Below are positions 38,403-52,670 of a stretch of DNA of 64,000 bases, in pieces. The notes under the pieces were generated by a model, which saw only the letters and a list, made by a program, of their open reading frames with translations, searched no databases and had not been told where the DNA came from. A program made the position numbers and the translations under genes. Positions within the stretch are counted from its first letter, which is position 1. Each line of letters begins with the position of its first letter. The DNA is taken from positions 160,001-224,000 of IMG/VR virus record IMGVR_UViG_3300037424_000434; one strand, written 5' to 3'. Origin of the DNA: a virus (lineage: Duplodnaviria > Caudoviricetes).

Positions 38403-38407
38403 GTTTT

Positions 38408-38598: not shown

Positions 38599-38612
38599 CT
38601 ACTCAAGTCAAA

Positions 38613-38791: not shown

Positions 38792-38799
38792 ACATTTTG

Positions 38800-39134: not shown

Positions 39135-39139
39135 TATAT

Positions 39140-39314
39140 GCTCCCGTGTAGAAATATGGCCAACACGAGAAAAAATATCCCATTCATGAGGGGATTACAG
39201 TAACGTGAAGGACTCTAGCCCGGACTCGAAAGGCGCATCAAGCGAAGGTGAACGGTTATCTGGGATAGTTGATAGCAACTATAATTGCTGGTTCGAAGCC
39301 AGCCGGGGGCTCCA
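39140..39314 (+). ncRNA. tRNA-like RNA with ~100 extra nt
   Basis: Acceptor gctcccg/cgggggc, T-arm gctgg-ttcgaag-ccagc, U-CCA end, internal CAT-loop hairpin. Confidence 0.65.
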
Positions 39315-39454
39315 ATTTGTGGGTACCAAATAAAGAGTGCTTTGTCAACCACGGAGAAAGACATGAAACAAGAAATTAATCAAGAAGAACTGGAAAAAAT
39401 GGAGACGTGAAAAATGGATTGAATACGCATCGGTTCGCGTAACTTTGGAGCGCC

Positions 39455-39709
39455 TTGTTATGGCGCGGAGGTAGGGAAGTGTTAAGTAAAAATCAAATGA
39501 AGGCATTAAAGGAATTAACCGCAGCCTTCAAAAAGTGTAAAGCGGTAAATATTTCTTTCTGCGGGATGGACTGCGATCTTCTTGCGTATGATCGAGAAGA
39601 ATTAAGCTCTCAAGAAAAAGAGTTGGGTGGTCTTCACGAAGCGCAAGGAAAATGTGACCATGAAATAGTTAATACGCATGGGACATATTTAGACAGCGGA
39701 GGCTGGTGA
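39455..39709 (+). CDS. Hypothetical protein
   Basis: 84 aa in track; true start probably 39479 or later. Confidence 0.5.
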   Translation: MLWRGGREVLSKNQMKALKELTAAFKKCKAVNISFCGMDCDLLAYDREELSSQEKELGGLHEAQGKCDHEIVNTHGTYLDSGGW

Positions 39710-39877
39710 ACGTAAGGGGGGCGATTAGTACCCTATAGCGTTTTCGTTTAAGAGTGGAACAAACGAAACAAATTCCATTCAAACATTAATATCGCGGTTT
39801 TGTTGAAAAGAAAAGAACGGTTGACCATGCGTTAAAGGTTGTGGGATTTAGTAATTCTTTTTGGCAAACATTTTTGT

Positions 39878-39951
39878 ACCCGATTAGTACAATGGGAGTG
39901 CAACTGGCCTACACCCAGTAGACACGGGTTCGATTCCTGTATCGGGTACCA
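39878..39951 (+). tRNA. tRNA-Val(TAC)
   Basis: Cloverleaf with CCA; C at position 33. Confidence 0.85.
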
Positions 39952-40008
39952 TTAAAACATGTTAGGGTTGAACCATGGGTTCGTAAAAACTTTCCCCCTA
40001 AACTTTAT

Positions 40009-40083
40009 CCCTGTGTAGCTGAGATGGATTAGCGATTGCCTGAAGAGCAGTATAGAAGGGTTCGATACCTTTCACAGGGACCA
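40009..40083 (+). tRNA. tRNA-Phe(GAA)
   Basis: Cloverleaf with CCA. Confidence 0.9.
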
Positions 40084-40089
40084 TTTATT

Positions 40090-40359
40090 CATGGGTCGCG
40101 CCCATGGCGCATCTATCCTATGCGAAAATCATGGTTACGATCATGGTGTGGATACGAGTGTAGAATATAAACCCTCACCGGTGGACTCTGGCATGGTGGC
40201 TACGAACTACTATTGGAATGTTCAATTCATTCTGGGGGTGCCAATTAGAATTGATTGTTGCGGTATAATATGGGCGAGTTAGGGCACGTCCACAGAATCC
40301 ACCTTTAGTGGGGTGGCACAAAGCACTTTAGATGGAGTTGTCAACCATCCAACAATCAA
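40090..40359 (+). ncRNA. Unassigned structured RNA candidate
   Basis: catggg/cccatg, cgcat/atgcg, 10-bp ttgattgttg/caacaatcaa enclosing further hairpins. Confidence 0.45.
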
Positions 40360-40370
40360 CACAAGTTTAT

Positions 40371-40447
40371 GGGAGCGTGATGGAATTGGCATACGTGTTG
40401 GTCTTAGAAACCAAATTTTAGGGGTTCGAATCCCCTCGCTCCTACCA
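40371..40447 (+). tRNA. tRNA-Leu(TAG), short variable arm
   Basis: Cloverleaf with CCA. Confidence 0.88.
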
Positions 40448-40453
40448 AAATGC

Positions 40454-40670
40454 AACAGGTAAACGCTCTAAAGAACATGAGAATGGGTTGGGAGTAATAT
40501 TCCGTAACGGATTACCTGACCACTAGGCTACCCATCTAGACCCTTTATTGGGATAAATCATGTCACCTGTTTACACTACAGTTATAGATACTGTATTATA
40601 AGATTCGTGGGGGATTAGCCCACGAATGCATAGGCATAAGGTTTAAGCCCTTGCAATGACGGGCTCAAAT
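40454..40670 (+). ncRNA. Unassigned structured RNA candidate
   Basis: aacaggt/acctgtt closed domain plus three consecutive hairpins. Confidence 0.5.
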
Positions 40671-40703
40671 CAACTAGCTTAGACCGATTTTTTAAGAATT
40701 TAC

Positions 40704-40774
40704 CGGTGTGTGAGAGAATGGTACTCATCCATCCTTGGACGATGGAAACGCAGGTTCGATTCCTGCCATGCCGA
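40704..40774 (+). tRNA. tRNA-Pro(TGG), no encoded CCA
   Basis: cggtgtg/catgccg, loop CTTGGAC. Confidence 0.8.
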
Positions 40775-40775
40775 C

Positions 40776-40838
40776 TTGACATGTAATAAATATCTCCCTA
40801 TCTCTATTTATAATAGTTCGATATTTATTACATGTCAA
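40776..40838. repeat. Perfect 19-bp inverted repeat with 25-nt spacer
   Basis: ttgacatgtaataaatatc / gatatttattacatgtcaa. Confidence 0.95.
40805..40838 (-). promoter_or_regulatory. Antisense promoter candidate
   Basis: Minus strand TTGACA-N17-TATTAT overlapping minus-strand TATAAATA. Confidence 0.45.
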
Positions 40839-40941
40839 TATATTATACTACATGTTTGAAAGGTACGCACTTTGGGTTGCACCCTATAGCGTTTTAACTA
40901 CTTGCCGAGCAGGGCTTTTCAACTTTCAAACAATTTTTTAT

Positions 40942-41017
40942 GCGGGTAGAACTCAGTCTCATGGTGAGGCAGTAGCCTTCCAAGCTATCGTTAGGTGTTC
41001 GATTCACCCTACCCGCT
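40942..41017 (+). tRNA. tRNA-Gly(TCC), irregular, no CCA
   Basis: gcgggta/tacccgc, loop CTTCCAA; 5 extra nt before D-stem. Confidence 0.65.
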
Positions 41018-41110
41018 TTTTACGAATATCGAACATATATCCGAAATCCTCGGGGTGAATGGATACCGATGAACCCCTTGAGGTGAGTAGGTAACGTAAC
41101 AAAAGCATTT

Positions 41111-41185
41111 GATGCTATCGTATAAGGGTTATTACCTCTGGTTGTCAGCCAGATAATGCGGGTTCGAGTCCCGCTAGCATCGCCA
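41111..41185 (+). tRNA. tRNA-Asp(GTC)
   Basis: Cloverleaf with CCA. Confidence 0.9.
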
Positions 41186-41212
41186 TTTTTTGTTATATAG
41201 ATAGACAGTTAT

Positions 41213-41286
41213 GCTCCTCTAGTTCAATGGCAGAGCAATCGCCCGATTAGCGATGAATCAGGGTTCAAATCCTTGGGGGAGTACCA
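41213..41286 (+). tRNA. tRNA-Ile(GAT)
   Basis: Cloverleaf with CCA; atypical loop CCGATTA. Confidence 0.75.
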
Positions 41287-41295
41287 GAATTTTGT

Positions 41296-41370
41296 TCCTT
41301 CTTAGTTCAGTGGCAGAACGCTTGGCTGTTAACCAAGATGTCGCAAGTTCGAATCTTGCAGAAGGAGCCA
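41296..41370 (+). tRNA. tRNA-Asn(GTT)
   Basis: Cloverleaf with CCA. Confidence 0.92.
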
Positions 41371-41373
41371 TTT

Positions 41374-41445
41374 CAGCGGGGTTAGTTTAAGGGAGAACAG
41401 AGAGGGCTTGCCTCTCAGACATGGGTTTGGATCCTATGCCCTGTA
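41374..41445 (+). pseudogene. Degenerate tRNA remnant
   Basis: D-arm-like tagtttaagggagaac, gagag/ctctc stem, broken T-loop and acceptor. Confidence 0.4.
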
Positions 41446-41474
41446 ATATTTTGTGTTAACACGAGATCAAGGAG

Positions 41475-41729
41475 ATGATTATGGTTAACACGTTCGAAGA
41501 TGACAATTATTTAAAGAGGTTTAATGAGTCACGATCCTTTCTTTGTTCGGGTGGTTATTTAACAGATGGGGAGAATCGAAAAATCAAAGATCGGTTCAGG
41601 AAAGCCGCAGCAAAAAGTGGAACAAAGCTGGAAACGCTTCCCTTTTTTATCAAGCAAAGGGTGAACGTGAACGATTTTGGTATATCAAGGATCATGAATG
41701 AGACAAACAAAGAGAGAATCTTTTGTTGA
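41475..41729 (+). CDS. Hypothetical protein
   Basis: 84 aa, AAGGAG RBS. Confidence 0.55.
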   Translation: MIMVNTFEDDNYLKRFNESRSFLCSGGYLTDGENRKIKDRFRKAAAKSGTKLETLPFFIKQRVNVNDFGISRIMNETNKERIFC

Positions 41730-41925
41730 AGCAATAACAAACATGTTAATCGGATATTCATGTGGCGTATTATCTCAACTATTAGTGTTTCCTTTGGTGG
41801 GAATTTATGTATCATGGAGTGATAATTTATTGCTTGCTCTGTATTTTACTTTAGTAAGCTTGTTGCGAAATTATGTTGTTAGAAGAGTTTTTGATGCAAA
41901 GAAGCATAAAAAGGTTTATGTATAG
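41698..41925 (+). CDS. Small two-TM phage membrane protein (QTKRESFVEAITN family)
   Basis: Recognisable N-terminal motif and two hydrophobic helices. Confidence 0.6.
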   Translation: MRQTKRESFVEAITNMLIGYSCGVLSQLLVFPLVGIYVSWSDNLLLALYFTLVSLLRNYVVRRVFDAKKHKKVYV

Positions 41926-41939
41926 GTCGTAAGTATTAC

Positions 41940-42009
41940 GGGGCTGGCGCTGGGACCGCATAGGAGTTTTGCAAATTTCTTGAGGTGGGTTCGATTCCCA
42001 CTAGCTCCA
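41940..42009 (+). tRNA. tRNA-Ala(TGC), short D-arm, no CCA
   Basis: G3-U70, A73, loop TTTGCAA, T-arm gtggg/cccac. Confidence 0.65.
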
Positions 42010-42064
42010 TAATCAGTTAAGATTGGAGAGAGAACGGTACTATTTTTAACTTGGAGGTAATTAG

Positions 42065-42220
42065 CTGACGCTTGACGAATATATTGAAATGGCTAAACAA
42101 GAATTGGATCTCATGAGAGAAGATTATGAAAGAAATAACAGAATTGATCCAGATTCATGGCCATTAGAACTTGACTCCGGTGCATGGGGCGAGGAAGAAA
42201 TGTGCAGGAGATTTTCTTAA
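42065..42220 (+). CDS. 51-aa acidic protein with CTG start
   Basis: GGAGG RBS then CTG ACG CTT GAC GAA TAT... Confidence 0.4.
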   Translation: MTLDEYIEMAKQELDLMREDYERNNRIDPDSWPLELDSGAWGEEEMCRRFS

Positions 42221-42231
42221 TAAGAGTTTAC

Positions 42232-42310
42232 GGGGGATTGGGCAATTTGGCAAAGCCGCTTGATTCAAAACCAAGAGATTTTACGGGTTCGATCCCCGTA
42301 TCCCCTACCA
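42232..42310 (+). tRNA. tRNA-Leu(CAA)
   Basis: Loop TTCAAAA, A73, CCA. Confidence 0.8.
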
Positions 42311-42321
42311 AAAGAGTTTAT

Positions 42322-42397
42322 GGTGTAGTGCCCAAGAGGTGTTTGGCATTCGGCTGTGACCCGGATTGATTGAGTTCGATTCTCACATTACACCCCA
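42322..42397 (+). tRNA. tRNA-His(GTG)
   Basis: G-1:C73, loop CTGTGAC, CCA. Confidence 0.85.
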
Positions 42398-42405
42398 AAT
42401 TAAAG

Positions 42406-42480
42406 GCACTCATGGTGAAAAGGAAATCACAGGAAACTTCTAATTTCTCGTTCTAGGTTCGAGTCCTAGTGGGTGCGCCA
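42406..42480 (+). tRNA. tRNA-Arg(TCT)
   Basis: Cloverleaf with CCA. Confidence 0.9.
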
Positions 42481-42554
42481 TTTGATAACATTTTTTGTAC
42501 ACTAACAATTGAAATGTTATCACACAAAAATTATAATTGAAAGTGTTTAAAGAC

Positions 42555-42695
42555 AAATTTCGGTGTCGTAAATTAGAGTTACTTCGTCTTCTAAACGAGT
42601 GGTCGCTGGTTCGAATCCAGCCAAGATCCCCAAAAAGGTCTTGTAGCTCAGCGGTAGAGCACTAAATCTCTCTGATTGATTGTTACCCGAAATTT
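42555..42695 (+). ncRNA. yrlA: YrlA-type Y RNA (circularly permuted tRNA-like domain)
   Basis: Order anticodon-like arm, T-arm, acceptor 3' strand, loop, acceptor 5' strand, D-arm, all inside a 5'/3' terminal bulged stem. Confidence 0.8.
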
Positions 42696-42703
42696 TGAGT
42701 TAT

Positions 42704-42778
42704 GCTCCAATAGTTAAACGGTATAACGGGCAACTTATAATTGTTTGTTGGAGGGTTCGACTCCCCCTTGGAGTACCA
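42704..42778 (+). tRNA. tRNA-Ile(TAT)
   Basis: Loop CTTATAA, A73, CCA. Confidence 0.8.
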
Positions 42779-42799
42779 CTTTTTTAATAACGACAATGA

Positions 42800-43025
42800 T
42801 AAGCGGCAACGGGCACCCAATACTGCCATAAGTGCGGGTGGTTTCAACCGCAAACGATAAAACCGAGTTGGGATTGCTGCCCTGATTGCGGAAACGAGAA
42901 AATCCCTTTCGTGGTTGGGCGGTACATCGTTGAAACAAAGAAGTGTGGCCGATGGCTCTGGGTATATTTTGAAACAAAAAATGTCGGGTTTATACCGGCA
43001 ACCTAACAACCCACTCTGGGACTTC
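42800..43025 (+). ncRNA. Unassigned structured RNA candidate
   Basis: tgcgg/ccgca, aacgat/atcgtt enclosing gggatt/aatccc, gtcgg/ccggc; no credible + ORF. Confidence 0.5.
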
Positions 43026-43035
43026 GTGATGATGA

Positions 43036-43110
43036 ACGGGTGTAGTCCAATTGGCAGGAGACGCGGGGCTTAAAACCCTGACAGTGTGAGTTCGAATCTC
43101 ATCACCCGTA
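43036..43110 (+). tRNA. tRNA-Leu(TAA), CTA in place of CCA
   Basis: acgggtg/cacccgt, loop CTTAAAA. Confidence 0.82.
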
Positions 43111-43130
43111 CTAATAGAAAGGAAAAGATT

Positions 43131-43364
43131 ATGAAAGTAAACATTGACGCAAAAGAATCATTACAACGTGACCCCGCGCATGATATTCAATCTGTCTTAA
43201 ACATTGGGTTCAAATGTCCGGACACGCGAACTGCGATAAACAAGGTAGTGGCAAGACTTGAGGGCCGTATCTGGGCACACGAAAACGATGAACAACAGAT
43301 GTGCGAGGATGAATACGAGGACTGCAAGAACGATTTAGCGTTGCTGAAGTTACTGATCGGCTAA
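43131..43364 (+). CDS. Hypothetical protein
   Basis: ATG 43131 after AAAGGA; track start overlaps tRNA. Confidence 0.6.
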   Translation: MKVNIDAKESLQRDPAHDIQSVLNIGFKCPDTRTAINKVVARLEGRIWAHENDEQQMCEDEYEDCKNDLALLKLLIG

Positions 43365-43367
43365 CCA

Positions 43368-43673
43368 GTGAAATTCTTAATAAAAGAGATTTCTAATGAA
43401 ACTTTTATTCACATTAGAAAGTGGATAGTGGATGTTGATGGAAATGAAAGCTGTAACTATAGAAGTCGTACCAGTATTAATTGTTTCTTTTATGGCAAAC
43501 ACCATAGAAACAAAACAAAAGACTTCCTGTATCATGGGGAGTCTTTGAGGGAAGCAATTGACGTTAGAGGATTTGATCCAGAAGGAGTTGCTGAGGTTGA
43601 TTCTATCTGGGAGTTTTATAAGATCATTGGTTATGATTATAAAAAGAAAAAATATGTTGACAAAACACTATAG
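43368..43673 (+). CDS. Hypothetical protein
   Basis: 101 aa. Confidence 0.55.
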   Translation: MKFLIKEISNETFIHIRKWIVDVDGNESCNYRSRTSINCFFYGKHHRNKTKDFLYHGESLREAIDVRGFDPEGVAEVDSIWEFYKIIGYDYKKKKYVDKTL

Positions 43674-43685
43674 AAAGGATACTAT
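43657..43685 (+). promoter_or_regulatory. Sigma70 promoter, TTGACA class
   Basis: TTGACA-N17-TACTAT. Confidence 0.6.
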
Positions 43686-43690
43686 TAATC

Positions 43691-43828
43691 ATGGCAGCAA
43701 AAAATGGTTCAACCAAAAGCTCAAAACGTAAAATGAAAACTTCTATTGGTAAGAGCAAGAACACTGTATACAACAAAGCTCACCAAAAGAAACATGGCAA
43801 AAAAGTATACCGTGGTCAGGGGCGATAA
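43691..43828 (+). CDS. 45-aa very basic protein ending KKVYRGQGR
   Basis: MAAKNGSTKSSKRKMKTSIGKSKNTVYNKAHQKKHGKKVYRGQGR; AAAGGA RBS. Confidence 0.65.
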   Translation: MAAKNGSTKSSKRKMKTSIGKSKNTVYNKAHQKKHGKKVYRGQGR

Positions 43829-43897
43829 ATGATTATTGCACCAAATGGCATGAGAACGAAGAAATCAGGTATTTCTTATTAAGTGACAGGAATAATC

Positions 43898-44053
43898 ATG
43901 CATTGGTTAAAGAAATTATTGGGTCTATGTGATCATAAGTGGGAGATCATCAAAGAAATTGAATGCTTTGAATATAGTTTTTCAAAACATCCATATAAAA
44001 CGAAATATATCTTACAATGTAAACATTGTGGGAACATTAAAAGAGTAAAGTGA
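43898..44053 (+). CDS. 51-aa Zn-binding hypothetical (CDHKW...CKHC)
   Basis: AGGA RBS; same pattern as 26042 ORF. Confidence 0.55.
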   Translation: MHWLKKLLGLCDHKWEIIKEIECFEYSFSKHPYKTKYILQCKHCGNIKRVK

Positions 44054-44218
44054 AGTAAAAGGCAATGGCAGTTAAAGATGACAAAAAAGATGTTGTTAAA
44101 AAGCCGTACAACATATTTTGAGGAGAATGACGATGAAACGAAAACAAAGAGATAAACTCATCGTGTTCTTGGGATAGATTAACACTCGCCCATGAGCACG
44201 TAAAACAACAGTGTTTAT

Positions 44219-44296
44219 GGGCGCGTAACTCAATTGGATTAGAGTATCCGGCTTTTACCCGGTAAGTTGTGGGTTCGAGTCCCACCGCGCCCACCA
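44219..44296 (+). tRNA. tRNA-Lys(TTT)
   Basis: Cloverleaf with CCA. Confidence 0.9.
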
Positions 44297-44310
44297 AAAT
44301 TTTGATTTGC

Positions 44311-44384
44311 GCGGGTGTAGTTCAATGGAAGAACAGTATACTTTTAATATACCTATCGGGGTTCGATTCCCTGTACCCGTACCA
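44311..44384 (+). tRNA. tRNA-Lys(TTT), second divergent copy
   Basis: Loop CTTTTAA, A73, CCA. Confidence 0.75.
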
Positions 44385-44393
44385 TTTTTTGGG

Positions 44394-44468
44394 GGGGGTA
44401 TAACTCAGTTGGCAGAGTACCTGACTCTTAATCAGGAGGTCACTGGTTCGATCCCAGTTGCCCCACCA
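44394..44468 (+). tRNA. tRNA-Lys(CTT)
   Basis: Loop CTCTTAA; acceptor one pair short. Confidence 0.8.
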
Positions 44469-44485
44469 AGATAAAAATAGAACAT

Positions 44486-44571
44486 GGAAGGTAGCGTCAT
44501 GGCGACAAACTAGTCTTGAAAATTAGGCCGGGTGTGAAAGCCCGAGGGTTCGATTCCTTTACCTTCTTCCA
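44486..44571 (+). tRNA. tRNA-Ser(TGA)
   Basis: Long variable arm, loop CTTGAAA, U73-CCA. Confidence 0.75.
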
Positions 44572-44601
44572 CCAATGGACAAAGCATAAGTCCTTTATTT
44601 C

Positions 44602-44675
44602 GCCGCTATAGTTAAAAGGTATAACGCCTGTTTTGTAATCAGGATTTCGGGGTTCGAGTCCTCGTAGCGGCCCCA
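44602..44675 (+). tRNA. tRNA-Thr(TGT)
   Basis: Cloverleaf with CCA. Confidence 0.88.
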
Positions 44676-44701
44676 TTTTAAACAACAAAAGGCTCAAGAA
44701 G

Positions 44702-44863
44702 ATGTTGACATTATCGAAGCTTAGAAAAGCTTGGCTGAAAAACGTAGGTTACGTTCGCATTGCTAATGAGTTGTGCCTTGATCCCGATATGGTCCAAACT
44801 GTTTATGCACGATGGACAGAAGAGCACCTTAGAAAAAGATCTGGATGGATGTATCCATATTAA
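44702..44863 (+). CDS. 53-aa hypothetical protein
   Basis: MLTLSKLRKAWLKNVGYVRIANEL... Confidence 0.45.
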   Translation: MLTLSKLRKAWLKNVGYVRIANELCLDPDMVQTVYARWTEEHLRKRSGWMYPY

Positions 44864-44956
44864 GGAAAGTTAATCAATCAGGGCATTGACACCGACTGCT
44901 AATCGGTTGGTTCAGTAGTGATACTGAATAGGTTTCGAGTACCTAGCTTTCCTCCA
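44864..44956 (+). tRNA. tRNA-Ser(GCT), atypical fold
   Basis: 8-bp acceptor possible, 5-bp D-stem, long variable arm, U73-CCA. Confidence 0.8.
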
Positions 44957-44974
44957 TTAATGAAAGGATGACTT

Positions 44975-45715
44975 ATGTTTAAGATAAATCTTCATGCCCA
45001 TACTCAATATTCCGATGGTCAGGCCACTATTGCGCAAATGGCAGAAGCCTGCAAAGATTTGGAATTCACTGCATGTGTTATTACTGACCACGTTTATATG
45101 GATGATCGTCGGCCAAGTGTTTCACAGAGTCAATATTTACATAAAATCCTACCAGAAGCCCGTGAGGTCCAAGAGAAAGTAGGTATTCCTGTTATTGTCG
45201 GTGCGGAATTTAGCATTGGACGAATGGAAGAATGCTTAGTGTTTGGAACACAGGCAATCACAGAGCTATATTCTATGAGACAAGAATATATGAACATTAA
45301 AGACGCATATCTTGACATAGCAGATCTTGCATATATTCGAGATAATCGGGATTGTGCTGTTATTTTATGCCACCCTAGCATTCCCGTATACGGCGATAAT
45401 TTTTCCACATTTGACCCCGAAAATCCCCAAAAAACCAAACCCATGAAAAATTGGATAACCCAAGGCGGGGTTAATGTTATTGATGGATATGAAGGGATTA
45501 ATTCCGGCCAACCCCAGTTTGGTAAATTTAGAAATGTGCCCAAAGAGTTTGATGGTTTGATTTCCTTTTGCAACTCGGATGCCCATAGTGTGATATCATT
45601 GTCATTGGGGTATAATGAGACAGCATCCCCTATATACACAGAAGACGATCTTATAAGGTATATCAAGGGTGGGGGTGTTTGGAAGCACCATACTGTGCCT
45701 TGGAGATACGAATAA
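44975..45715 (+). CDS. PHP-domain phosphoesterase
   Basis: NLHAHTQYSDG, ITDH, GAE, CHP, NSDAH. Confidence 0.88.
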   Translation: MFKINLHAHTQYSDGQATIAQMAEACKDLEFTACVITDHVYMDDRRPSVSQSQYLHKILPEAREVQEKVGIPVIVGAEFSIGRMEECLVFGTQAITELYSMRQEYMNIKDAYLDIADLAYIRDNRDCAVILCHPSIPVYGDNFSTFDPENPQKTKPMKNWITQGGVNVIDGYEGINSGQPQFGKFRNVPKEFDGLISFCNSDAHSVISLSLGYNETASPIYTEDDLIRYIKGGGVWKHHTVPWRYE

Positions 45716-45966
45716 TGGACAATAACAAACTTGACAAATTAAGAGATATACGGTATACTGTTCGTAAGTGTTGTGGTACATGTAACAATGCCTGTTTTGA
45801 ATTCAGGGCTGAATGGGGGACATGCAAAATACATGAATATATACACAAAAAACATACAGGTAAACCTAGACATCTGAGTATTCATATGTATGGTTCGTGT
45901 GGCAGTTATGATATGAATAATGTTTTTGAAGCTGTCACTGAACACTATAAGGAGTTTTATGAGTAA
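45715..45966 (+). CDS. Cys/His-rich hypothetical protein
   Basis: CCGTC..CKIH..GSC; ATG 45715 couples to PHP stop. Confidence 0.6.
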   Translation: MDNNKLDKLRDIRYTVRKCCGTCNNACFEFRAEWGTCKIHEYIHKKHTGKPRHLSIHMYGSCGSYDMNNVFEAVTEHYKEFYE

Positions 45967-46624
45967 TGTAAAGCTGATTGCTGTGACAAAACCTGTTCTG
46001 GATGGGTGTGAGACAGCAGAAGAATTGATTTCGTATTGTGCTAGGGTATCAAACCCAGACAATCAAAGAAAGTATGATACAGCCGGTAAGTTGCTTCGAT
46101 ACATGTTAAAACATAAACATTTCAGTCCATTTGAAATGGCCCATATGGTTATGGAGATCAAAACAACCCGCGACATTGCTCGGCAGATTTTGCGTCACAG
46201 ATCGTTTTCTTTTCAAGAGTATAGTCAGAGATATGCAGCGGTAACCCCTGATTCGTTTGTGCTATCAGAGGCTCGTTTGCAGGACAAGTTCAATCGACAA
46301 AATTCAATTGAGGTTAGTGATAAAGCATTGCTTGATTGGTGGACTTTGAATCAAGGGAGGCTTTTGGACATGACGATTGCTCTGTATAATACCGCTCTCG
46401 AAAAGGGTATTGCAAAGGAAGTGGCCCGAAAGGTTTTGCCTGAAGGTATTACCGGGAGTGTGATGTACATGTCAGGCACAGTTCGCAGTTTCATTCATTA
46501 TTGTGATGTTAGACGGAAAAGCGATACTCAGCTTGAGCACCGATTGATTGCAAATGAAGTGTGGGATATATTATGCCAGCAGTTCCCCACTATACCCGAA
46601 GCACTGGAGATGTCAGATGAGTAA
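45959..46624 (+). CDS. thyX: Flavin-dependent thymidylate synthase
   Basis: ARVS, HFSPFE, RHRSFSFQEYSQRY, TQLEHR. Confidence 0.97.
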   Translation: MSNVKLIAVTKPVLDGCETAEELISYCARVSNPDNQRKYDTAGKLLRYMLKHKHFSPFEMAHMVMEIKTTRDIARQILRHRSFSFQEYSQRYAAVTPDSFVLSEARLQDKFNRQNSIEVSDKALLDWWTLNQGRLLDMTIALYNTALEKGIAKEVARKVLPEGITGSVMYMSGTVRSFIHYCDVRRKSDTQLEHRLIANEVWDILCQQFPTIPEALEMSDE

Positions 46625-46805
46625 AGAAATCGTGATATGTGAGGAGTGCTGTGGTAGGGGGTTTTTGATTAAATCAGTGTTAGAAGACTACCATAGGGGC
46701 ATATATACCGAAAAGAACGTTCCGTGTAACACGTGCAAGGAGTCCGGCAGACTTATCAAGATCACAACCATTGTAATTAGACCATACGAAAGTGACGTAG
46801 ACTGA
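46617..46805 (+). CDS. DnaJ-type zinc-finger small protein
   Basis: CEECCGRG and CNTCKESG repeats. Confidence 0.6.
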   Translation: MSKEIVICEECCGRGFLIKSVLEDYHRGIYTEKNVPCNTCKESGRLIKITTIVIRPYESDVD

Positions 46806-46817
46806 TTTTTTTTTTTG

Positions 46818-46846
46818 TTGACACAAAGAATGTGGGGTGGTATAGT
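46818..46846 (+). promoter_or_regulatory. Sigma70 promoter, TTGACA class
   Basis: TTGACA-N17-TATAGT after T-tract. Confidence 0.75.
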
Positions 46847-46887
46847 GTTCCTGTAGCGACAAACAACCCTGTCGAACGGAGCTAACT

Positions 46888-47262
46888 ATGTGTCAAATGA
46901 GTGATATTCATGATGAAGCGGTTAATGCGGGTTTGGAAGCAGGTAGCCGACACAAACCTGTTCCGATGATTGTGGGCGAGGAAAAAACCCTCTTCTCAAA
47001 TGAGATTGATTATGACAAAAAGGTGTACTATGTTGAATCAGGGGTTTGTGGGTTTGCGTGGGTTGAGATTTTTCCCGCTCGTGGCAAGTTCGTTTCGTAT
47101 TTAAAGAAAAACGATATTGGCCGGGTTGGGGATCGCGGTTATAGGATTCCTGTTTTTGTGTTCGGACAGTCACTTGAACGGAAAGAGAAATACGCCGAGG
47201 CTTTTGCATCTGTTCTAAAAAAACATGGCATTAAAGCGTATGCGAACTCCCGAGTGGATTGA
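46888..47262 (+). CDS. Conserved-type phage hypothetical protein
   Basis: GVCGFAWV...QSLERKEKYAEAFA motif. Confidence 0.7.
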   Translation: MCQMSDIHDEAVNAGLEAGSRHKPVPMIVGEEKTLFSNEIDYDKKVYYVESGVCGFAWVEIFPARGKFVSYLKKNDIGRVGDRGYRIPVFVFGQSLERKEKYAEAFASVLKKHGIKAYANSRVD

Positions 47263-47268
47263 TTTTTG

Positions 47269-47276
47269 TATAAATA
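47269..47276 (+). promoter_or_regulatory. Late promoter TATAAATA
   Basis: Exact consensus 7 nt upstream of tRNA-like element. Confidence 0.65.
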
Positions 47277-47283
47277 GAAGTAT

Positions 47284-47355
47284 GGCGGTATGTATGATTA
47301 TGACTGGTTGGCTCATATCCGACCGGGGAAAGTTTGATTCTTTCTACCGCTACCA
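47284..47355 (+). tRNA. D-arm-degenerate tRNA(CAT)-like element
   Basis: ggcggta/taccgct-A-CCA, loop CTCATAT, T-arm gaaag-tttgatt-ctttc. Confidence 0.6.
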
Positions 47356-47407
47356 TATAGTCAAAAAGAGAATGAGTCTCTTGGCGATTTTTTGTTAACA
47401 CAAAGAG

Positions 47408-47668
47408 GTGAATTATATGTCAAAGCATCACGACGAGGTTATTTCGGCGTATGGGTTGAGCACTGTAACATTTGACCATCTTGCCTTATACACTGTTGGT
47501 GTATTTTATTGGGGTGGTAATGGTTCTCCTGTTAGTACATATAAAATATTGGCTGATAAGAAAGAAGACGCTATTAAATATGTTAATAATAATTTGAAAG
47601 TATCTTATCTTCACCGAGTATCAATAATTTCAACAGAACCAAATCCAAACAGGCCAAAACATGCGTAA
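47408..47668 (+). CDS. Hypothetical protein
   Basis: 86 aa, GAGG RBS. Confidence 0.5.
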   Translation: MNYMSKHHDEVISAYGLSTVTFDHLALYTVGVFYWGGNGSPVSTYKILADKKEDAIKYVNNNLKVSYLHRVSIISTEPNPNRPKHA

Positions 47669-47888
47669 GTATGAAATTAAAACAGTGGAAACAAGGTTGC
47701 TTATCAGCCTGAAATGTGATATCTGTGGTATGGATATCATAAACTCACCACTTGAAGAACAAGAAGCAATCTTAATCGCAGATATTGGTGGATATAGTTC
47801 CGTGTTTGGTGACGGATGCGAATATCAACTTGATATGTGCCAGCACTGTTTCAAAGAAAAGCTTGGCCAATATGTGAGAATTTTATGA
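47661..47888 (+). CDS. Zn-binding hypothetical protein
   Basis: CDICG ... DMCQHC. Confidence 0.6.
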   Translation: MRKYEIKTVETRLLISLKCDICGMDIINSPLEEQEAILIADIGGYSSVFGDGCEYQLDMCQHCFKEKLGQYVRIL

Positions 47889-48046
47889 CATGTCCAGAAT
47901 GTGGTGATATTGTTGTGATAGAGGGATTGTGCAAAGATTGTAGAAATACGATGTTATCTAAACACAATTGTACTGATTGTGCGTGTGAATCATATATACA
48001 GCCATGTGAAGCATGTGATAATGGATCTTGTAGGGATTCATATTAG
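47885..48046 (+). CDS. Cys-rich small protein
   Basis: Four CxxC; ATGA overlap at 47885. Confidence 0.5.
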   Translation: MTCPECGDIVVIEGLCKDCRNTMLSKHNCTDCACESYIQPCEACDNGSCRDSY

Positions 48047-48107
48047 CATGATGACAAAAGGAGTTTAACACTTGGCTAACGGGCTTGTGGCCCAAGGAGG
48101 TAGACAG

Positions 48108-48383
48108 ATGAAACCACGGCAAAAAGATCCTTTATGCGTAGAAAAACCGCAACCCGCCGTTGAGTGCCTTGTTGTGCCCGGTCCAACAACGGCAGAAACA
48201 AGCAAATACAAATTCGGCAACATCTCGTGGATTAAGGGTGATCTACAGCAATGTGTTCTTCGGGCCGCTGTTGATTGGAAAAATTTTCAGTCGGCTGAAA
48301 ATGCACAGGCTCTCTATATGTCTGTGCTTGCGATGCTTGGGGAAGAACCGGAAAACATACATTTACTGGATGGTGAGTCGTAA
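48108..48383 (+). CDS. Hypothetical protein
   Basis: AAGGAGG RBS before ATG 48108. Confidence 0.6.
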   Translation: MKPRQKDPLCVEKPQPAVECLVVPGPTTAETSKYKFGNISWIKGDLQQCVLRAAVDWKNFQSAENAQALYMSVLAMLGEEPENIHLLDGES

Positions 48384-48435
48384 TCAAGGGGAAATCTACA
48401 GTGATGTGAGTTTCCAAAGCATACGTGGGTAAAGC

Positions 48436-48684
48436 ATGGGGTATGTTCTTATAGAAACAAGAACCCAGCAATGGAGCAAAATCAAGGAGTTACAAATGAC
48501 AGATGATGGATTTTTTGACAGCACGCCACCGGACCCCAAAAGAAAGTTGCGCTTTACCTATACGCTGTGGTCTTCGACCGGCGCGGGATTTGGTCTAGGT
48601 GTCTGGCGCGTCGTTTACTTACCGACAAACGTAATATGGACGATAGCTATTGGCCCGCTGTCGATTTATTTACGGTACGTATAG
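48436..48684 (+). CDS. Hypothetical protein
   Basis: 82 aa; start could be 48496. Confidence 0.45.
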   Translation: MGYVLIETRTQQWSKIKELQMTDDGFFDSTPPDPKRKLRFTYTLWSSTGAGFGLGVWRVVYLPTNVIWTIAIGPLSIYLRYV

Positions 48685-48783
48685 CGATTGTGTTGCTGTA
48701 GCATATAACATATTCTAATATATTGAACTAACAAGAAAGGTTGTTATTGATTGAGAACGTTTCTACTGCCAAAGGCTAAAGCA

Positions 48784-48930
48784 ATGGCATTGCATTTATC
48801 CTCGGAATATCAAGAAGGATATGATTCGCTGGTAACAGAAAATCCTTATGATTTTTTTGATGACGCGATGAAGCATACTGCATGGTGTTATGGTAAACAA
48901 AAGAGAACATTGGAACAAGAAGGGAAGTAA
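48784..48930 (+). CDS. Ribosome modulation factor (RMF)-like small protein
   Basis: EYQEGY...NPY...AWCYG matches RMF G-Y..CPY..W..GW spacing; not in ORF track. Confidence 0.5.
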   Translation: MALHLSSEYQEGYDSLVTENPYDFFDDAMKHTAWCYGKQKRTLEQEGK

Positions 48931-48960
48931 TTCTTTCCTGAATTCGTATAATGGTGGTGT

Positions 48961-49221
48961 ATGATGGCAGATGATAGTTTAGCCCCTATCCAATTCAAGC
49001 ATATGACCGTGATAGCAAAACATGATCCCGGTGTTACTGGGAAGTACGAAGAAGGTGAAGTTTTGTGTGGTTGTGGCCGAGAATTCATGTACTCGATTCA
49101 GTATGAAGAAAATTTAAGACAAATTAATGATAGTTTGGTGTTTAGATGTCCTCGATGCTATGCAATGAGTCTAGAACAAACCGTTGGACTATTGAGTAAA
49201 GAGTGTAGTGAATTGGTGTAA
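48961..49221 (+). CDS. Zn-binding hypothetical protein
   Basis: CGCG and CPRC. Confidence 0.55.
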   Translation: MMADDSLAPIQFKHMTVIAKHDPGVTGKYEEGEVLCGCGREFMYSIQYEENLRQINDSLVFRCPRCYAMSLEQTVGLLSKECSELV

Positions 49222-49283
49222 ACGAGTAAGATAGGCGGCGATGGTGTAACAGACAGATAATCGTACGAGGAGACTCTTATATT

Positions 49284-49499
49284 ATGACTAAATCATTTTG
49301 CGGCAAATGTAAATATAGGCAAGGTAGATTCAAGAGTGAATCAAACTGCTCTCATCCCGCAAACATCAGAGAGGATGATGATTGGTATGGCGGAGTGAAA
49401 ATTTATGGAAAATGTCAAATCATAAACAAGGATAATAAATGCCCCAATTTTATGTGGATACCTTCTATGGACCCGAGGACAAAATATGACTTGGATTAA
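49284..49499 (+). CDS. Cys-containing hypothetical protein
   Basis: CGKC..C..C..C; GAGGAG RBS. Confidence 0.6.
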   Translation: MTKSFCGKCKYRQGRFKSESNCSHPANIREDDDWYGGVKIYGKCQIINKDNKCPNFMWIPSMDPRTKYDLD

Positions 49500-49788
49500 T
49501 ATTGAAGACCAAGAACCAGAAGAAGATAGAGAGCTGTTCTATTTTTTTGAGCATACTGGTGTATCCAAAGGCAAGTATCGCCGGACATATTACGACCCCG
49601 AAATCTGGGGGGATGGGTTGGGAGATTGTTATATGGATACTTTCTATGGGAGGGGGGGCTTTCTGTCCGACGATGTGACACACTGGATGTATGTCGATGG
49701 ACACGATTGGTATCCAGCTCCCCCAAAAGAATTTATTCAGGGAGTAGCAGTAAACGGCCTACCAATAAAAGCAGATATGGAAGATTAA
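49486..49788 (+). CDS. DUF551-like protein
   Basis: WINIEDQEPE ... DVTHWM motif. Confidence 0.65.
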   Translation: MTWINIEDQEPEEDRELFYFFEHTGVSKGKYRRTYYDPEIWGDGLGDCYMDTFYGRGGFLSDDVTHWMYVDGHDWYPAPPKEFIQGVAVNGLPIKADMED

Positions 49789-49871
49789 GCAATCAGGGTA
49801 TTGCACCTTCTTGGAAAGGAGTGGGTTCGGCAGAAACGCCGGATAGGATTCGAGTTCCTAGTCTTCCTCCA
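49779..49871 (+). tRNA. tRNA-Ser(GGA), atypical fold
   Basis: Same architecture as 44864; imperfect anticodon stem, loop TTGGAAA; U73-CCA. Confidence 0.65.
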
Positions 49872-49915
49872 TATTATATAAAATCAGGCTAAGAGCCTGT
49901 AAGGAACAAAATTGC

Positions 49916-50125
49916 ATGTCTAAATTTAAACATTACATAACAGCCCCAACAGATCAAATAGATGAGGCTACATATGAAGGTAATATAGGATTCGAGGAAA
50001 TGGTGGATTTTTATAAGAAATCCACTGAATCCGAATACAACAGTATGGAAGATGCTATTTCTAGAAATGATTGGGTTGCATTTAAAAAACTAATAAAAAG
50101 GGTAGTGGGGGTTAATCTAAAATAA
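49916..50125 (+). CDS. Hypothetical protein
   Basis: YEGNIGFEEMVDFY motif; AAGGA RBS. Confidence 0.6.
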   Translation: MSKFKHYITAPTDQIDEATYEGNIGFEEMVDFYKKSTESEYNSMEDAISRNDWVAFKKLIKRVVGVNLK

Positions 50126-50127
50126 GA

Positions 50128-50268
50128 ATGTCTGAATATATAAGAGTATGTTGTCCCCAATGCGACAGCGAAGAAATTGTACCGAAGTATGGAAACATTT
50201 TTGAGTGTCGGGATTGCGGGTATGTTGACGAAGAATACATTTTTGAAGATGTTGTTGTAGACGAATAA
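50128..50268 (+). CDS. 46-aa zinc-ribbon protein
   Basis: CPQCDS...FECRDCGY; not in ORF track. Confidence 0.6.
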   Translation: MSEYIRVCCPQCDSEEIVPKYGNIFECRDCGYVDEEYIFEDVVVDE

Positions 50269-50270
50269 AA

Positions 50271-50346
50271 GGACTTGTAGAACAATTGGCAGTTCGGGGT
50301 GCTCATAACACCAAGGTTTCAGGTTCGAGTCCTGACAGGTCCACCA
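50271..50346 (+). tRNA. tRNA-Met/Ile2(CAT)
   Basis: Cloverleaf with CCA, loop CTCATAA. Confidence 0.85.
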
Positions 50347-50354
50347 AATTTTAA

Positions 50355-50709
50355 GGGGTTGTAAAGGTTTCGACAGTCGTTGGGATGGAGATAACACGTG
50401 CAGTAGATGATTGTTGGCTACTTAAAAAATCAATCAAACAGATAAACGCTGAAGATAACTTCGCACTAGCGGCATAAGCCGCTTGTCGCTGTGACAACTC
50501 CTGATAGTCACTATAGCGGCATCATTAGTCAGGAAAAGCTGACCATGCTTAATGGTATGAAATACGGTTTTTTTTGGTTCATATCGCGTCACCGGGGAAG
50601 TTATGCTTGGCCGTATTTTCGAGAAAAAAGAGCGCCAAAGGCGAAACGCACGTAATGAATGTTACTTTTGAACAATGGTTGGACGTGGGTTCGACTCCCA
50701 CCAACTCCA
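50355..50709 (+). ncRNA. ssrA: tmRNA, tag (A)AEDNFALAA
   Basis: GGGGTTG..GGTTTCGAC 5' end, G3-U70, T-arm, tag ORF 50448-50477 ending ALAA-TAA; no encoded CCA. Confidence 0.93.
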
Positions 50710-50803
50710 TAATTAATGTGAGCCAAACCATGCGAAGGTGAATAGATACCACTGGATGGGAGCTTAGGCCGCGCTAAGAAGCCGCGCTAATAAGGATATT
50801 ATA

Positions 50804-51903: not shown

Positions 51904-52035
51904 GTGAGGTCAAATAAAAAACAGACTTCAGTAACAGTGGATCGCAAAATTAAATGCGCCATATGCGGGACAGTTTGTAAAACAAGCGCAAAATTCTGCG
52001 GAAATTGCGGAACGAACTTGACATATCAATATTAA
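51904..52035 (+). CDS. 43-aa zinc-ribbon protein
   Basis: CAICGT...AKFCGNCGT; GTG start at 51904 or 51937. Confidence 0.5.
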   Translation: MRSNKKQTSVTVDRKIKCAICGTVCKTSAKFCGNCGTNLTYQY

Positions 52036-52046
52036 GAGCGTAAGAT
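52018..52046 (+). promoter_or_regulatory. Sigma70 promoter, TTGACA class
   Basis: TTGACA-N17-TAAGAT directly upstream of Y-like RNA. Confidence 0.65.
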
Positions 52047-52057
52047 GTAATACATAC

Positions 52058-52140
52058 AATGACGGTGGCGTAGAACAGGGATACTTCACATGACGAAAAG
52101 ACACCTTGCTCGTTTGATCCCCTGATTTGTAATTAACATT
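52058..52140 (+). ncRNA. Second Y-like RNA without tRNA-like domain
   Basis: ggtggcgtagaacagggatacttc resembles YrlA 5' ggtgtcgtaaattagagttacttc; cagggat/atcccctg stem. Confidence 0.55.
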
Positions 52141-52156
52141 TTTATAGGAAAAAGGC

Positions 52157-52408
52157 ATGAATGTGAAACAATTTTTCAGTGTACACGCAGAGTTACAAGC
52201 AGTGTTCTTTCGGGATGTTTGTGAGGGATATCTAGCCTCGTTTGTTGTTGTCGTGGGTGTATGTGGTGTTGTTTTGGAACTATTCAAACAAGCATTTATG
52301 TCCTTTACGACAAAATCAATCGAATTTGAGGTTCTACAGGATAAAAAGTATCAAGAAGAAACAGACTTTTTGTGTCAAAAACAAAAAGAGATGGATGAAC
52401 AACAATAA
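52157..52408 (+). CDS. Hypothetical protein
   Basis: 83 aa with one hydrophobic stretch. Confidence 0.45.
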   Translation: MNVKQFFSVHAELQAVFFRDVCEGYLASFVVVVGVCGVVLELFKQAFMSFTTKSIEFEVLQDKKYQEETDFLCQKQKEMDEQQ

Positions 52409-52637: not shown

Positions 52638-52670
52638 AAAGGTAACCTCTAACACGGGGTTACCTTTTTT
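52638..52670 (+). terminator. Intrinsic terminator
   Basis: aaaggtaacc / ggttaccttt plus T-run. Confidence 0.85.

What the first reader, a model, noticed from the sequence alone, without database searches (positions are those of the whole stretch)
52018..52140. Second, minimal Y-like RNA with its own promoter
Seen: TTGACA-N17-TAAGAT followed by an ~83-nt element closed by aatg/catt, whose 5' strand ggtggcgtagaacagggatacttc aligns with YrlA ggtgtcgtaaattagagttacttc. It pairs via cagggat/atcccctg and has one internal hairpin instead of the tRNA-like domain. Inference: a stripped-down Y RNA retaining only the Ro-binding module, possibly a sponge or decoy for Rsr.
Basis: inference. Interest (0 to 1): 0.65.

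Follow-up and report, generated by a model that had tools for sequence, protein, structure and literature searches.

The report
Minimal hairpin Y RNA in phage

Summary
The element is real, but smaller and folded differently than described. The RNA is window 52064-52122 (+), 59 nt. It has a lower stem G1-C, G2-C, (U3 bulged), G4-C, G5-C. An internal loop follows (5' CGUA against 3' GUUUGAU), then an 8-bp upper stem GAACAGGG/CCUUGCUC, an AUACUUC box and a 16-nt loop.

A covariance model built only from 12 instances in other phage contigs finds exactly two sites in the 64-kb window: this one (51.3 bits, E 3.7e-11, full length) and the tRNA-like Y RNA at 42562-42688. The fold is backed by strong covariation: 97-98% of cells are paired and 11 of 12 pairs show changes on both sides.

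The RNA family tracks Ro60/Rsr. Thirteen of 14 phage contigs and 99 of 120 bacterial loci (mostly Bacteroidota) that carry the 5' motif encode it. This phage encodes a TROVE+vWA Ro60 119 kb away, with more copies of the same module directly upstream of it.

Hairpin-type second Y RNAs are already known (YrlB, Yrn2, phiLo Yrl2), so this is a new member of a known kind. A sponge or decoy role is untested.

Earlier notes of this scan already reported the Ro60 locus and the 42562 RNA of this genome. None shown covers this locus.

The parts
52018..52046 (+). Sigma-70-like promoter candidate: TTGACA, 17-nt spacer, TAAGAT. The -35 hexamer lies in the last codons of the zinc-ribbon ORF. The -10 ends 17 nt before the first base of the RNA.
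   Evidence: 10 of 12 matches. It is a consensus match only; promoter-like sites are not enriched in this region.
52064..52122 (+). Minimal (hairpin-type) Y-like RNA, 59 nt, the whole model match.
   Evidence: R1 covariance model, built from other contigs only: 51.3 bits, E 3.7e-11, model positions 1-62 of 62.
52064..52068 (+). Lower-stem 5' strand GGUGG. G1, G2, G4 and G5 are paired; U3 is bulged.
   Evidence: Covariation across the family: GGUG pairs with CCC, AGUG with CCU, GAUG with CUC, and N5 is always complementary to N'.
52069..52072 (+). CGUA, the near-invariant 5' side of the internal loop. It takes the place of the published GNCGAA / CGAA Ro-binding motif.
   Evidence: Invariant in alignments A1 and A3. 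Consensus. The published motif is from PMC4201824 and PMC12135203.
52073..52080 (+). Upper-stem 5' strand GAACAGGG.
   Evidence: Pairs with 52104-52111 at 7 of 8 positions (one A.C mismatch). All 8 pairs covary in the family.
52081..52087 (+). AUACUUC box, a near-invariant unpaired motif directly after the upper stem.
   Evidence: UACUUC is conserved at 90% or more in both phage and bacterial sets. Its role is unknown.
52088..52103 (+). Variable 16-nt loop, A-rich at its 3' side. It occupies the place of the tRNA-like domain of the long forms.
   Evidence: Loops of 12-29 nt occur in 62 minimal members.
52104..52111 (+). Upper-stem 3' strand CCUUGCUC.
52112..52118 (+). GUUUGAU, the 3' side of the internal loop (family consensus GCUUGUU).
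52119..52122 (+). Lower-stem 3' strand CCCC (N' = C pairs with G5, followed by CCC).
42562..42688 (+). Paralogue with the same stem module, carrying an anticodon-arm mimic and a T-arm / acceptor-like / D-arm domain (YrlA type). It lies inside the tRNA gene array.
   Evidence: R1 scores 50.6 bits. Rfam YrlA scores 38.1 bits over the tRNA-like domain only, below the gathering score of 69.
52157..52408 (+). 83-aa ORF of unknown function with a good ribosome-binding site, 34 nt after the RNA. No terminator lies between them, so co-transcription is possible.
   Evidence: No family match. No relatives found.
52638..52667 (+). First intrinsic-terminator-like hairpin downstream (12 pairs followed by a T run). 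It is the likely end of the transcription unit.

Best explanation
Window 52064-52122 encodes a 59-nt hairpin-type Y RNA. It is one of three strong copies (four counting a diverged one) of a conserved Ro60/Rsr-associated stem module in this phage.

Shown: the sequence has every conserved feature of a large RNA family. These are a 4-bp lower stem with a bulged U, a CGUA/GYUUGUU internal loop, an 8-bp upper stem and a UACUUC box. The family's helices covary, and its members sit next to Ro60/Rsr genes in phages and bacteria.

Inferred: the phage Ro60 binds the stem and internal-loop module, as Ro60 binds the conserved stem of other Y RNAs. The Ro60 gene has TROVE and vWA domains and lies 119 kb upstream.

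The RNA has no tRNA-like effector domain. It therefore most likely forms an alternative Ro60 particle. Such a particle could occupy or gate the protein without tethering the partner that the tRNA-like Y RNAs recruit (PNPase in the studied systems), or it could recruit a different partner.

The RNA is probably transcribed from its own sigma-70-like promoter at 52018-52046, separately from the Ro60-linked copies. With no terminator before the next ORF, it would be trimmed out of a longer transcript that continues into the 83-aa and 62-aa ORFs.
For: Model and specificity. R1 was built from 12 instances in other IMG/VR contigs, with the candidate excluded. It gives only two hits with E below 1 in the window: 52064-52122 (51.3 bits, E 3.7e-11, full length) and 42562-42688. 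It gives no hit in 270 kb of unrelated phage loci.

Covariation. In 47 phage instances 97.0% of cells are paired, 11 of 12 pairs change on both sides, and the score is 0.752 against 0.221 shuffled and 0.16 or less when slid. In 150 bacterial instances the figures are 97.8% and 0.709 against 0.222. On a structure-blind MAFFT alignment that includes the candidate they are 93% and 0.649 against 0.199.

Link to Ro60. Thirteen of 14 IMG/VR contigs found by the 5'-strand pattern alone encode a TROVE protein, and the RNAs are mostly within 3 kb of it. Ninety-nine of 120 bacterial loci have a tblastn hit to the phage Ro60.

Own genome. It has a TROVE + vWA_Ro60 protein. A 49.6-bit copy ends just before that gene's start, and a further copy of the 5' motif lies upstream of it.

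Intactness. The candidate keeps all invariant positions. Its score equals that of its paralogues.

Precedent. Studied bacteria have a tRNA-like Y RNA plus a hairpin-type one (PMC4201824). Thermus phage phiLo Ro60 binds a one-hairpin Yrl2 (PMC12135203). Another phage (G011) has a minimal copy 35 kb from its Ro60 gene, inside a tRNA array.
Against: There is no expression data, since the phage is uncultured, and no binding data.

No close relative of this phage was found, so conservation of this particular locus could not be tested.

The family fold is not the thermodynamic optimum here. It is 3.1 kcal/mol above the MFE, and its pair probabilities in genomic context are below 0.01. That gap is typical of family members.

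The upper stem has one A.C mismatch and one G.U pair.

The motif is CGUA, not the published CGAA.

The gene lies 119 kb from the Ro60 gene, outside the 2-4 kb rule used in the literature.

No terminator follows the RNA, so a discrete transcript needs processing.
Confidence: 0.75

Rival explanations
1. It is a cis-acting leader. The Y-like module stays attached to the mRNA of the 83-aa and 62-aa ORFs and serves as a Ro60-binding site that controls that mRNA's stability or translation, rather than acting as a free small RNA.
For: The promoter, the RNA, an ORF 34 nt downstream with a good ribosome-binding site, and the first terminator only at 52638-52667 fit one transcription unit.
Against: In the 14 phage contigs and 80 bacterial loci searched with the model, family members lie mostly in tandem arrays of RNAs, 10-25 nt apart, or between tRNA genes. 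That implies excision as small RNAs. Known bacterial Y RNAs are likewise processed out of operon transcripts (PMC4201824). No family member was shown to act in cis.
Confidence: 0.1
2. It is a non-functional relic: a duplicated Y RNA that lost its tRNA-like domain and is decaying.
For: It is far from the Ro60 gene. It has one A.C mismatch and a G.U pair in the upper stem. A competing CAGGG/CCCUG helix is more stable than the family fold. No orthologous locus is available to show purifying selection.
Against: All near-invariant positions and 11 of 12 pairs are intact. The score (51.3 bits) equals that of the Ro60-adjacent copy (49.6) and of the tRNA-like copy (50.6). Minimal forms of 55-72 nt make up 62 of the 197 family members aligned, so the short form is a normal class and not damage. 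A near-consensus promoter precedes it.
Confidence: 0.1
3. It is the reader's 83-nt element, closed by aatg/catt and paired by cagggat/atcccctg, and that is the functional fold.
For: That helix is part of the predicted MFE (-14.6 against -10.4 kcal/mol for the family fold in the 82-nt context).
Against: The pairing is not conserved (52.5% paired against 53.3% in shuffles). It consumes the CCCC that covaries with the 5' GGUGG. The region folds no better than shuffled sequence (z = -0.09).
Confidence: 0.03
4. It is a chance resemblance: an ordinary promoter and 5' UTR.
For: The 18/24 identity alone occurs in 7% of shuffles. No Rfam family matches.
Against: An independent model scores it at E 3.7e-11 across both strands at the correct spacing, with no hit in 270 kb of control DNA.
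Confidence: 0.01

Closest known systems
Hairpin-type second Y RNAs of bacteria: S. Typhimurium YrlB, M. smegmatis YrlB, D. radiodurans Yrn2 (Chen et al. 2014, PMC4201824)
   Same: A short Ro60/Rsr partner RNA that coexists with a tRNA-like Y RNA in the same genome. It is a single long hairpin with a small loop, has a conserved G-N-C-G-purine-rich motif near the 5' end, and lacks a full tRNA-like domain.
   Different: Those RNAs lie within 2 kb of rsr and were found by immunoprecipitation. This one is 119 kb away with its own promoter-like site, has CGUA instead of CGAA, and carries a UACUUC box. I did not compare sequences directly because none was on hand.
Thermus phage phiLo Yrl1 / Yrl2 with phage Ro60 (PMC12135203; PDB 9KOP)
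   Same: Phage-encoded Ro60 with more than one Y RNA-like partner. Yrl2 is a single hairpin with a stem-bulge-stem layout and the motif in the bulge. Binding to the phage Ro60 and a complex with host PNPase were shown in vitro.
   Different: The phiLo RNAs lie directly upstream of the Ro60 gene and carry CGAA. No homology between them and this family was tested here.
YrlA, Rfam RF02553
   Same: The same kind of Ro-binding stem: a 5' strand holding ...CG(A/U)A... and a 3' strand holding ...CUUGU.... The long members of this family carry the YrlA T-arm / acceptor-like / D-arm domain.
   Different: The candidate has no tRNA-like domain and no YrlA hit at E 10 or below. Even the long members of this phage and Bacteroidota subfamily score only 38-50 bits, below the gathering score of 69.
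Metazoan Y RNAs (hY1, hY3-5; Xenopus Y3)
   Same: The 5' and 3' ends pair into a stem with a bulged nucleotide and a conserved 5'-strand motif that Ro60 reads. A variable loop carries the partner-specific functions (general knowledge; Stein et al. 2005 as cited in PMC4201824).
   Different: The motif is different (GGUCCGA). Metazoan Y RNAs are Pol III transcripts with a U tail and bind La. No sequence homology is detectable.

Membership tests
Y RNA (Ro60/Rsr partner RNA) | The genome encodes a Ro60/Rsr (TROVE) protein | tested here: met
   TROVE 105.9 bits plus vWA_Ro60 36.1 bits in the ORF at about G000 91.4-93.0 kb, minus strand.
Y RNA (Ro60/Rsr partner RNA) | The 5' and 3' ends pair into a stem interrupted by a bulge or internal loop | tested here: met
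   Full-length R1 match with 11 of 12 standard pairs. Both helices covary in 47 phage and 150 bacterial instances.
Y RNA (Ro60/Rsr partner RNA) | Conserved Ro-binding motif on the 5' strand (bacteria GNCGAAN0-1G, or CGAA; PMC4201824, PMC12135203) | tested here: inconclusive
   The candidate reads GGCGUAG: it has GNCG, then UA instead of AA, then G. The same CGUA variant is near-invariant across the whole family, so it is a consistent variant and not an exact match.
Y RNA (Ro60/Rsr partner RNA) | Encoded within about 2-4 kb of rsr on the same strand | tested here: not met
   The candidate is at G000 212064 and rsr at about 92-93 kb on the other strand. Its paralogue at 93046-92965 and most family members do meet this feature. 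One other phage also has a distal copy.
Y RNA (Ro60/Rsr partner RNA) | Physically bound by Ro60/Rsr, with Rsr-dependent accumulation | not testable with these tools
   Needs EMSA or immunoprecipitation.
YrlA (Rfam RF02553) | tRNA-like domain (T-arm and D-arm around an acceptor-like hairpin) and a score at or above 69 bits | tested here: not met
   No YrlA hit at E 10 or below in 51980-52180. Only 23 nt lie between the stem strands.
Hairpin-type second Y RNAs (YrlB / Yrn2 / phiLo Yrl2) | A single hairpin with the Ro-binding module and a small loop, coexisting with a tRNA-like Y RNA | tested here: met
   A 59-nt hairpin with a 16-nt loop. The tRNA-like paralogue is at 42562-42688.
Hairpin-type second Y RNAs (YrlB / Yrn2 / phiLo Yrl2) | Sequence homology to the named RNAs | not tested
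Phage/Bacteroidota Y-RNA stem family defined here (model R1) | GGUGNCGUAG + 8-bp stem + UACUUC ... CGCUUGUU-N'-CCC, with N paired to N' | tested here: met
   51.3 bits, E 3.7e-11, with a model that did not include it.

The most novel reading that the evidence does not exclude
The stem module of phage and bacterial (mostly Bacteroidota) copies has the same consensus. A promoter-driven minimal copy, unlinked from the phage Ro60 gene, could therefore be made at a different time from the Ro60-linked copies. It could load onto the host's own Rsr as well as the phage's. As an effector-less competitor it would displace the host's tRNA-like Y RNAs and so disable or re-aim the host Rsr-PNPase RNA-decay machine.
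Probability: 0.12. Interest if true: 0.7.

Novelty: new member of a known kind. Interest (0 to 1): 0.45.

Why it matters
Hairpin-type Y RNAs have so far been found mainly by pulling down Ro60. Chen et al. 2014 state that such RNAs eluded bioinformatic discovery. Here the minimal RNA is recognisable by sequence and structure, because phage and Bacteroidota Y RNAs share one covarying stem module that Rfam does not capture (no hit for the short forms, 38-50 bits against a threshold of 69 for the long forms).

The same model found 329 hits in 80 bacterial loci and 47 hits in the 15 phage sources searched, 44 of them in 13 other phage contigs. About a third of the aligned hits are minimal forms.

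For this phage it shows a Ro60 system with three or four different Y RNAs. Two are dispersed: one lies inside the tRNA array and this one 1.35 kb past the tmRNA gene. That points to separate regulation of different Ro60 particles during infection. It is a useful, testable addition to Y RNA biology, not a new principle.

Tried and rejected
1. Rfam. There is no family at the site even at E 10 or below.

2. Single-sequence folding. I rejected this as evidence either way, because family members typically sit 0-6 kcal/mol above their MFE.

3. The 18/24 identity alone is not significant; it occurs in 7% of shuffles.

4. Synteny in relatives. The 83-aa ORF and the NAD-dependent ligase have no relatives in IMG/VR, and the 83-aa ORF also has none in metagenome contigs. 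Phage-collection BLAST found only 5-7% coverage in T4-like phages. Loci holding relatives of the neighbouring endolysin carry no such RNA. Conservation of this exact locus therefore could not be tested.

5. The exact 24-mer in metagenome contigs matched only one unrelated contig, where it starts a tRNA-like Y RNA upstream of an Rsr-like ORF. That is not an orthologue.

6. Pairing of the UACUUC box with the 3' part of the loop, or of C6 and G7 with the 3' internal-loop strand. I saw no consistent partner or covariation by eye. I did not test this formally.

7. The 2020 review by Sim et al. and the supplement of Chen et al. 2014 were not held. I could not check whether Bacteroidota arrays or this consensus are already listed there.

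Full report
**Where it is.** The window is bases 160001-224000 of a 235,765-bp IMG/VR phage record. It holds 27 tRNA genes and a tmRNA gene at 36973-50712. The finding lies in a 121-nt gap, 52036-52156. Upstream is a 43-aa zinc-ribbon ORF (51904-52035; weak Zn-ribbon matches). Downstream is an 83-aa ORF with no known family (52157-52408). All of these are on the + strand.

**Checking the observation.**
- The hexamers TTGACA (52018-52023) and TAAGAT (52041-52046), 17 nt apart, are present and score 10 of 12. Such sites are not enriched locally: 14 found against 10.2 expected.
- The 24-mer at 52064 matches the 24-mer at 42562 at 18 of 24 positions. It is the best non-self match in the window, but 7% of shuffled windows give a match that good.
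- The region has no Rfam match at E 10 or below and folds no better than shuffles (z = -0.09).
- On these tests alone the finding would be weak.

**The lead that decided it.** I searched the phage's whole genome for the positions shared by the two 24-mers, GGTGNCGTA-N9-TACTTC. This gave four sites:
- the two in the window;
- two on the minus strand at 93046 and 93269, directly upstream of an ORF with TROVE and Ro60-vWA domains, that is a Ro60/Rsr orthologue.

The same pattern has exact matches in 14 other IMG/VR contigs, often several per contig.

**Anatomy of the family.** Reading the instances shows one architecture, in order:
1. 5' G1-G2-U3-G4-N5;
2. CGUA;
3. an 8-nt upper-stem strand;
4. 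(U/A)UACUUC;
5. a variable insert of 12 to about 260 nt;
6. the complementary 8-nt strand;
7. G(C/U)UUGUU;
8. N'-C-C-C at the 3' end.

N5 is always complementary to N'. A 5' AGUG goes with a 3' CCU, and GAUG goes with CUC. The lower stem is therefore G1-C, G2-C, U3 bulged, G4-C, N5-N'.

The insert comes in two forms:
- a short A-rich loop or small hairpin, giving total lengths of 55-98 nt;
- an anticodon-arm mimic followed by a T-arm, an acceptor-like hairpin and a D-arm, giving 113-162 nt.

The length distribution is bimodal in both phages and bacteria.

**The candidate in this frame.** It reads: GGUGG, CGUA, GAACAGGG, AUACUUC, ACAUGACGAAAAGACA, CCUUGCUC, GUUUGAU, CCCC. This is 52064-52122, 59 nt. 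The true 3' strand is thus 52104-52122.

**Independent test.**
- I built covariance model R1 from 12 minimal instances in other contigs, leaving out both window sequences.
- In the 64-kb window R1 gives two hits with E below 1: 52064-52122 (51.3 bits, E 3.7e-11, model 1-62 of 62) and 42562-42688 (50.6 bits).
- In the whole genome it also finds 93046-92965 (49.6 bits), which ends just before the Ro60 start codon.
- It finds nothing at E 0.1 or below in 270 kb of unrelated phage loci.

**Is the structure real?**

| Alignment | Cells paired | Covariation score | Shuffled score |
|---|---|---|---|
| 47 phage instances | 97.0% | 0.752 | 0.221 |
| 150 bacterial instances | 97.8% | 0.709 | 0.222 |
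| MAFFT alignment with the candidate, family fold | 93% | 0.649 | 0.199 |

- In the phage set 11 of 12 pairs change on both sides. Partners slid by 1-3 columns score 0.16 or less, and 0 of 500 shuffles reach the observed score.
- The first two alignments were fitted to the model, so they lean towards its structure. The MAFFT alignment was not, and still no shuffle reaches the observed score.
- Thermodynamically the family fold of the candidate is 3.1 kcal/mol above its MFE. In genomic context the CAGGG/CCCUG alternative wins. A gap of this size is typical of the family, with a median of about 2.6 kcal/mol, as expected for a protein-bound RNA with a bulge and a large internal loop.

**Link to Ro60.**
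- Thirteen of the 14 IMG/VR contigs picked by the RNA pattern alone encode a TROVE protein. The exception is a 5-kb fragment whose match has no 3' partner.
- The RNAs mostly lie within 3 kb of that gene.
- Ninety-nine of 120 bacterial loci of 8 kb or less have a tblastn hit to the phage Ro60.
- R1 finds 329 hits in 80 of these loci, so tandem arrays are the rule.
- The long members hit Rfam YrlA only at 38-50 bits, against a gathering score of 69. The short ones do not hit it at all.
- The phage and bacterial consensus sequences are the same, and the candidate carries every strongly conserved base.

**What is known.**
- Chen et al. 2014 (PMC4201824) described YrlA RNAs near rsr in 254 bacteria and 22 phages.
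- They reported a 5' motif, GNCGAAN0-1G, probably read by Rsr.
- They found that each of three studied species has a second, hairpin-type Y RNA (YrlB, Yrn2) with a small loop, and that such RNAs "eluded bioinformatic discovery".
- For Thermus phage phiLo, two RNAs with a CGAA motif in a stem-bulge-stem, one of them a single hairpin, bind the phage Ro60 and form a complex with host PNPase (PMC12135203).
- The candidate is therefore a new member of the known class of hairpin-type Y RNAs. Its motif is CGUA, one base away from the published motif, and the whole family shares that variant.

**How it most likely works.**
- Shown: membership of the family, the covarying fold, the family's association with Ro60, and the presence of Ro60 in this genome.
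- Inferred: the phage Ro60 binds the stem, internal loop and UACUUC module.
- The RNA lacks the tRNA-like domain that in studied systems tethers PNPase. It should therefore form a different Ro60 particle: either a gating or competing one, or one with another partner.
- A sigma-70-like promoter lies 17 nt upstream. There is no terminator before the next ORF, and the first is at 52638-52667. The RNA is probably cut out of a longer transcript, as bacterial Y RNAs are cut out of operon transcripts.

**Position in the genome.** Distance from rsr is unusual but not unique. Phage G011 has a minimal copy 35 kb from its Ro60 gene, between tRNA-Asn and tRNA-Thr. In this phage the tRNA-like copy sits in the tRNA array, and the candidate lies 1.35 kb after the tmRNA gene.

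**Limits.**
- There are no expression or binding data.
- No close relative of this phage was found, so selection on this particular locus could not be shown.
- The rivals that remain are a cis-acting leader and a decaying copy, each at about 0.1.

**Earlier notes of this scan.** Notes on the same genome had already reported the Ro60 gene with two upstream Y-like RNAs and the YrlA-type RNA at 42562. My own tests agree with them. None of the notes shown covers 52064-52122.

Noticed in passing
L113-L192 (bacterial loci; for example L137 4161-5880, L184 4112-7306, L192 1480-2153): Rsr loci of Bacteroidota, and of some Terriglobia and others, carry tandem arrays of many Y RNAs with this stem module: 329 R1 hits in 80 loci. 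Forms of about 60 nt are mixed with forms of about 120 nt. Among the eight loci checked against Rfam, none reaches the YrlA gathering score (38-50 bits against 69).
   Followed up: partly
window 42583-42599; also L090 3184, L092 703, L091 1473 and many minimal members listed: Directly after the UACUUC box many members form a 4-5-bp hairpin with a 7-nt loop of the form CUNNNAA, an anticodon-arm look-alike (CUUCUAA, CUGUUAA, CUCGUAA and others). The long forms thus mimic all four tRNA arms in permuted order. The candidate has only a weak version: UUC/GAA around ACAUGAC.
   Followed up: no
L233 2504-2578 (-) = G011:C1:23203-23277: Another phage of about 100 kb has a minimal Y-like RNA (41.5 bits) between tRNA-Asn and tRNA-Thr in a 22-gene tRNA array, 35 kb from its Ro60 gene. 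Dispersal of Y RNA genes into tRNA arrays therefore recurs.
   Followed up: partly
L234 1530-1667 (-): An unrelated metagenome contig has a tRNA-like Y RNA whose first 24 nt are identical to the candidate's. It has a perfect GAACAGGG/CCCUGUUC stem and lies just upstream of an Rsr-like ORF start. There is no other similarity to this phage.
   Followed up: partly
L082 775-2409 (-) (G000 about 91352-92986): The longest Ro60 reading frame starts 25 codons upstream of MTRFN. That extension overlaps the Y RNA at 93046-92965, so the true start is probably the MTRFN methionine.
   Followed up: no
G000 93269 to about 93060 (-) (L104): The second Ro60-adjacent copy has a diverged module: GAUGA at the 5' end, and CUCUUGGU-GGCAAUU-U-CUC at the 3' end, around an insert of about 170 nt. 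The strands pair as the family rule predicts, but R1 does not score it.
   Followed up: partly
window 50355-50712: A phage-encoded tmRNA (122 bits) with tag peptide AEDNFALAA lies directly after a tRNA-Met gene, 1.35 kb upstream of the candidate.
   Followed up: no
window 51904-52035: A 43-aa ORF with two CxxC pairs (weak zinc-ribbon matches). The candidate's -35 hexamer lies in its last codons.
   Followed up: no
They get no R1 hit, which agrees with the earlier follow-up that they are not Y RNAs.
   Followed up: partly
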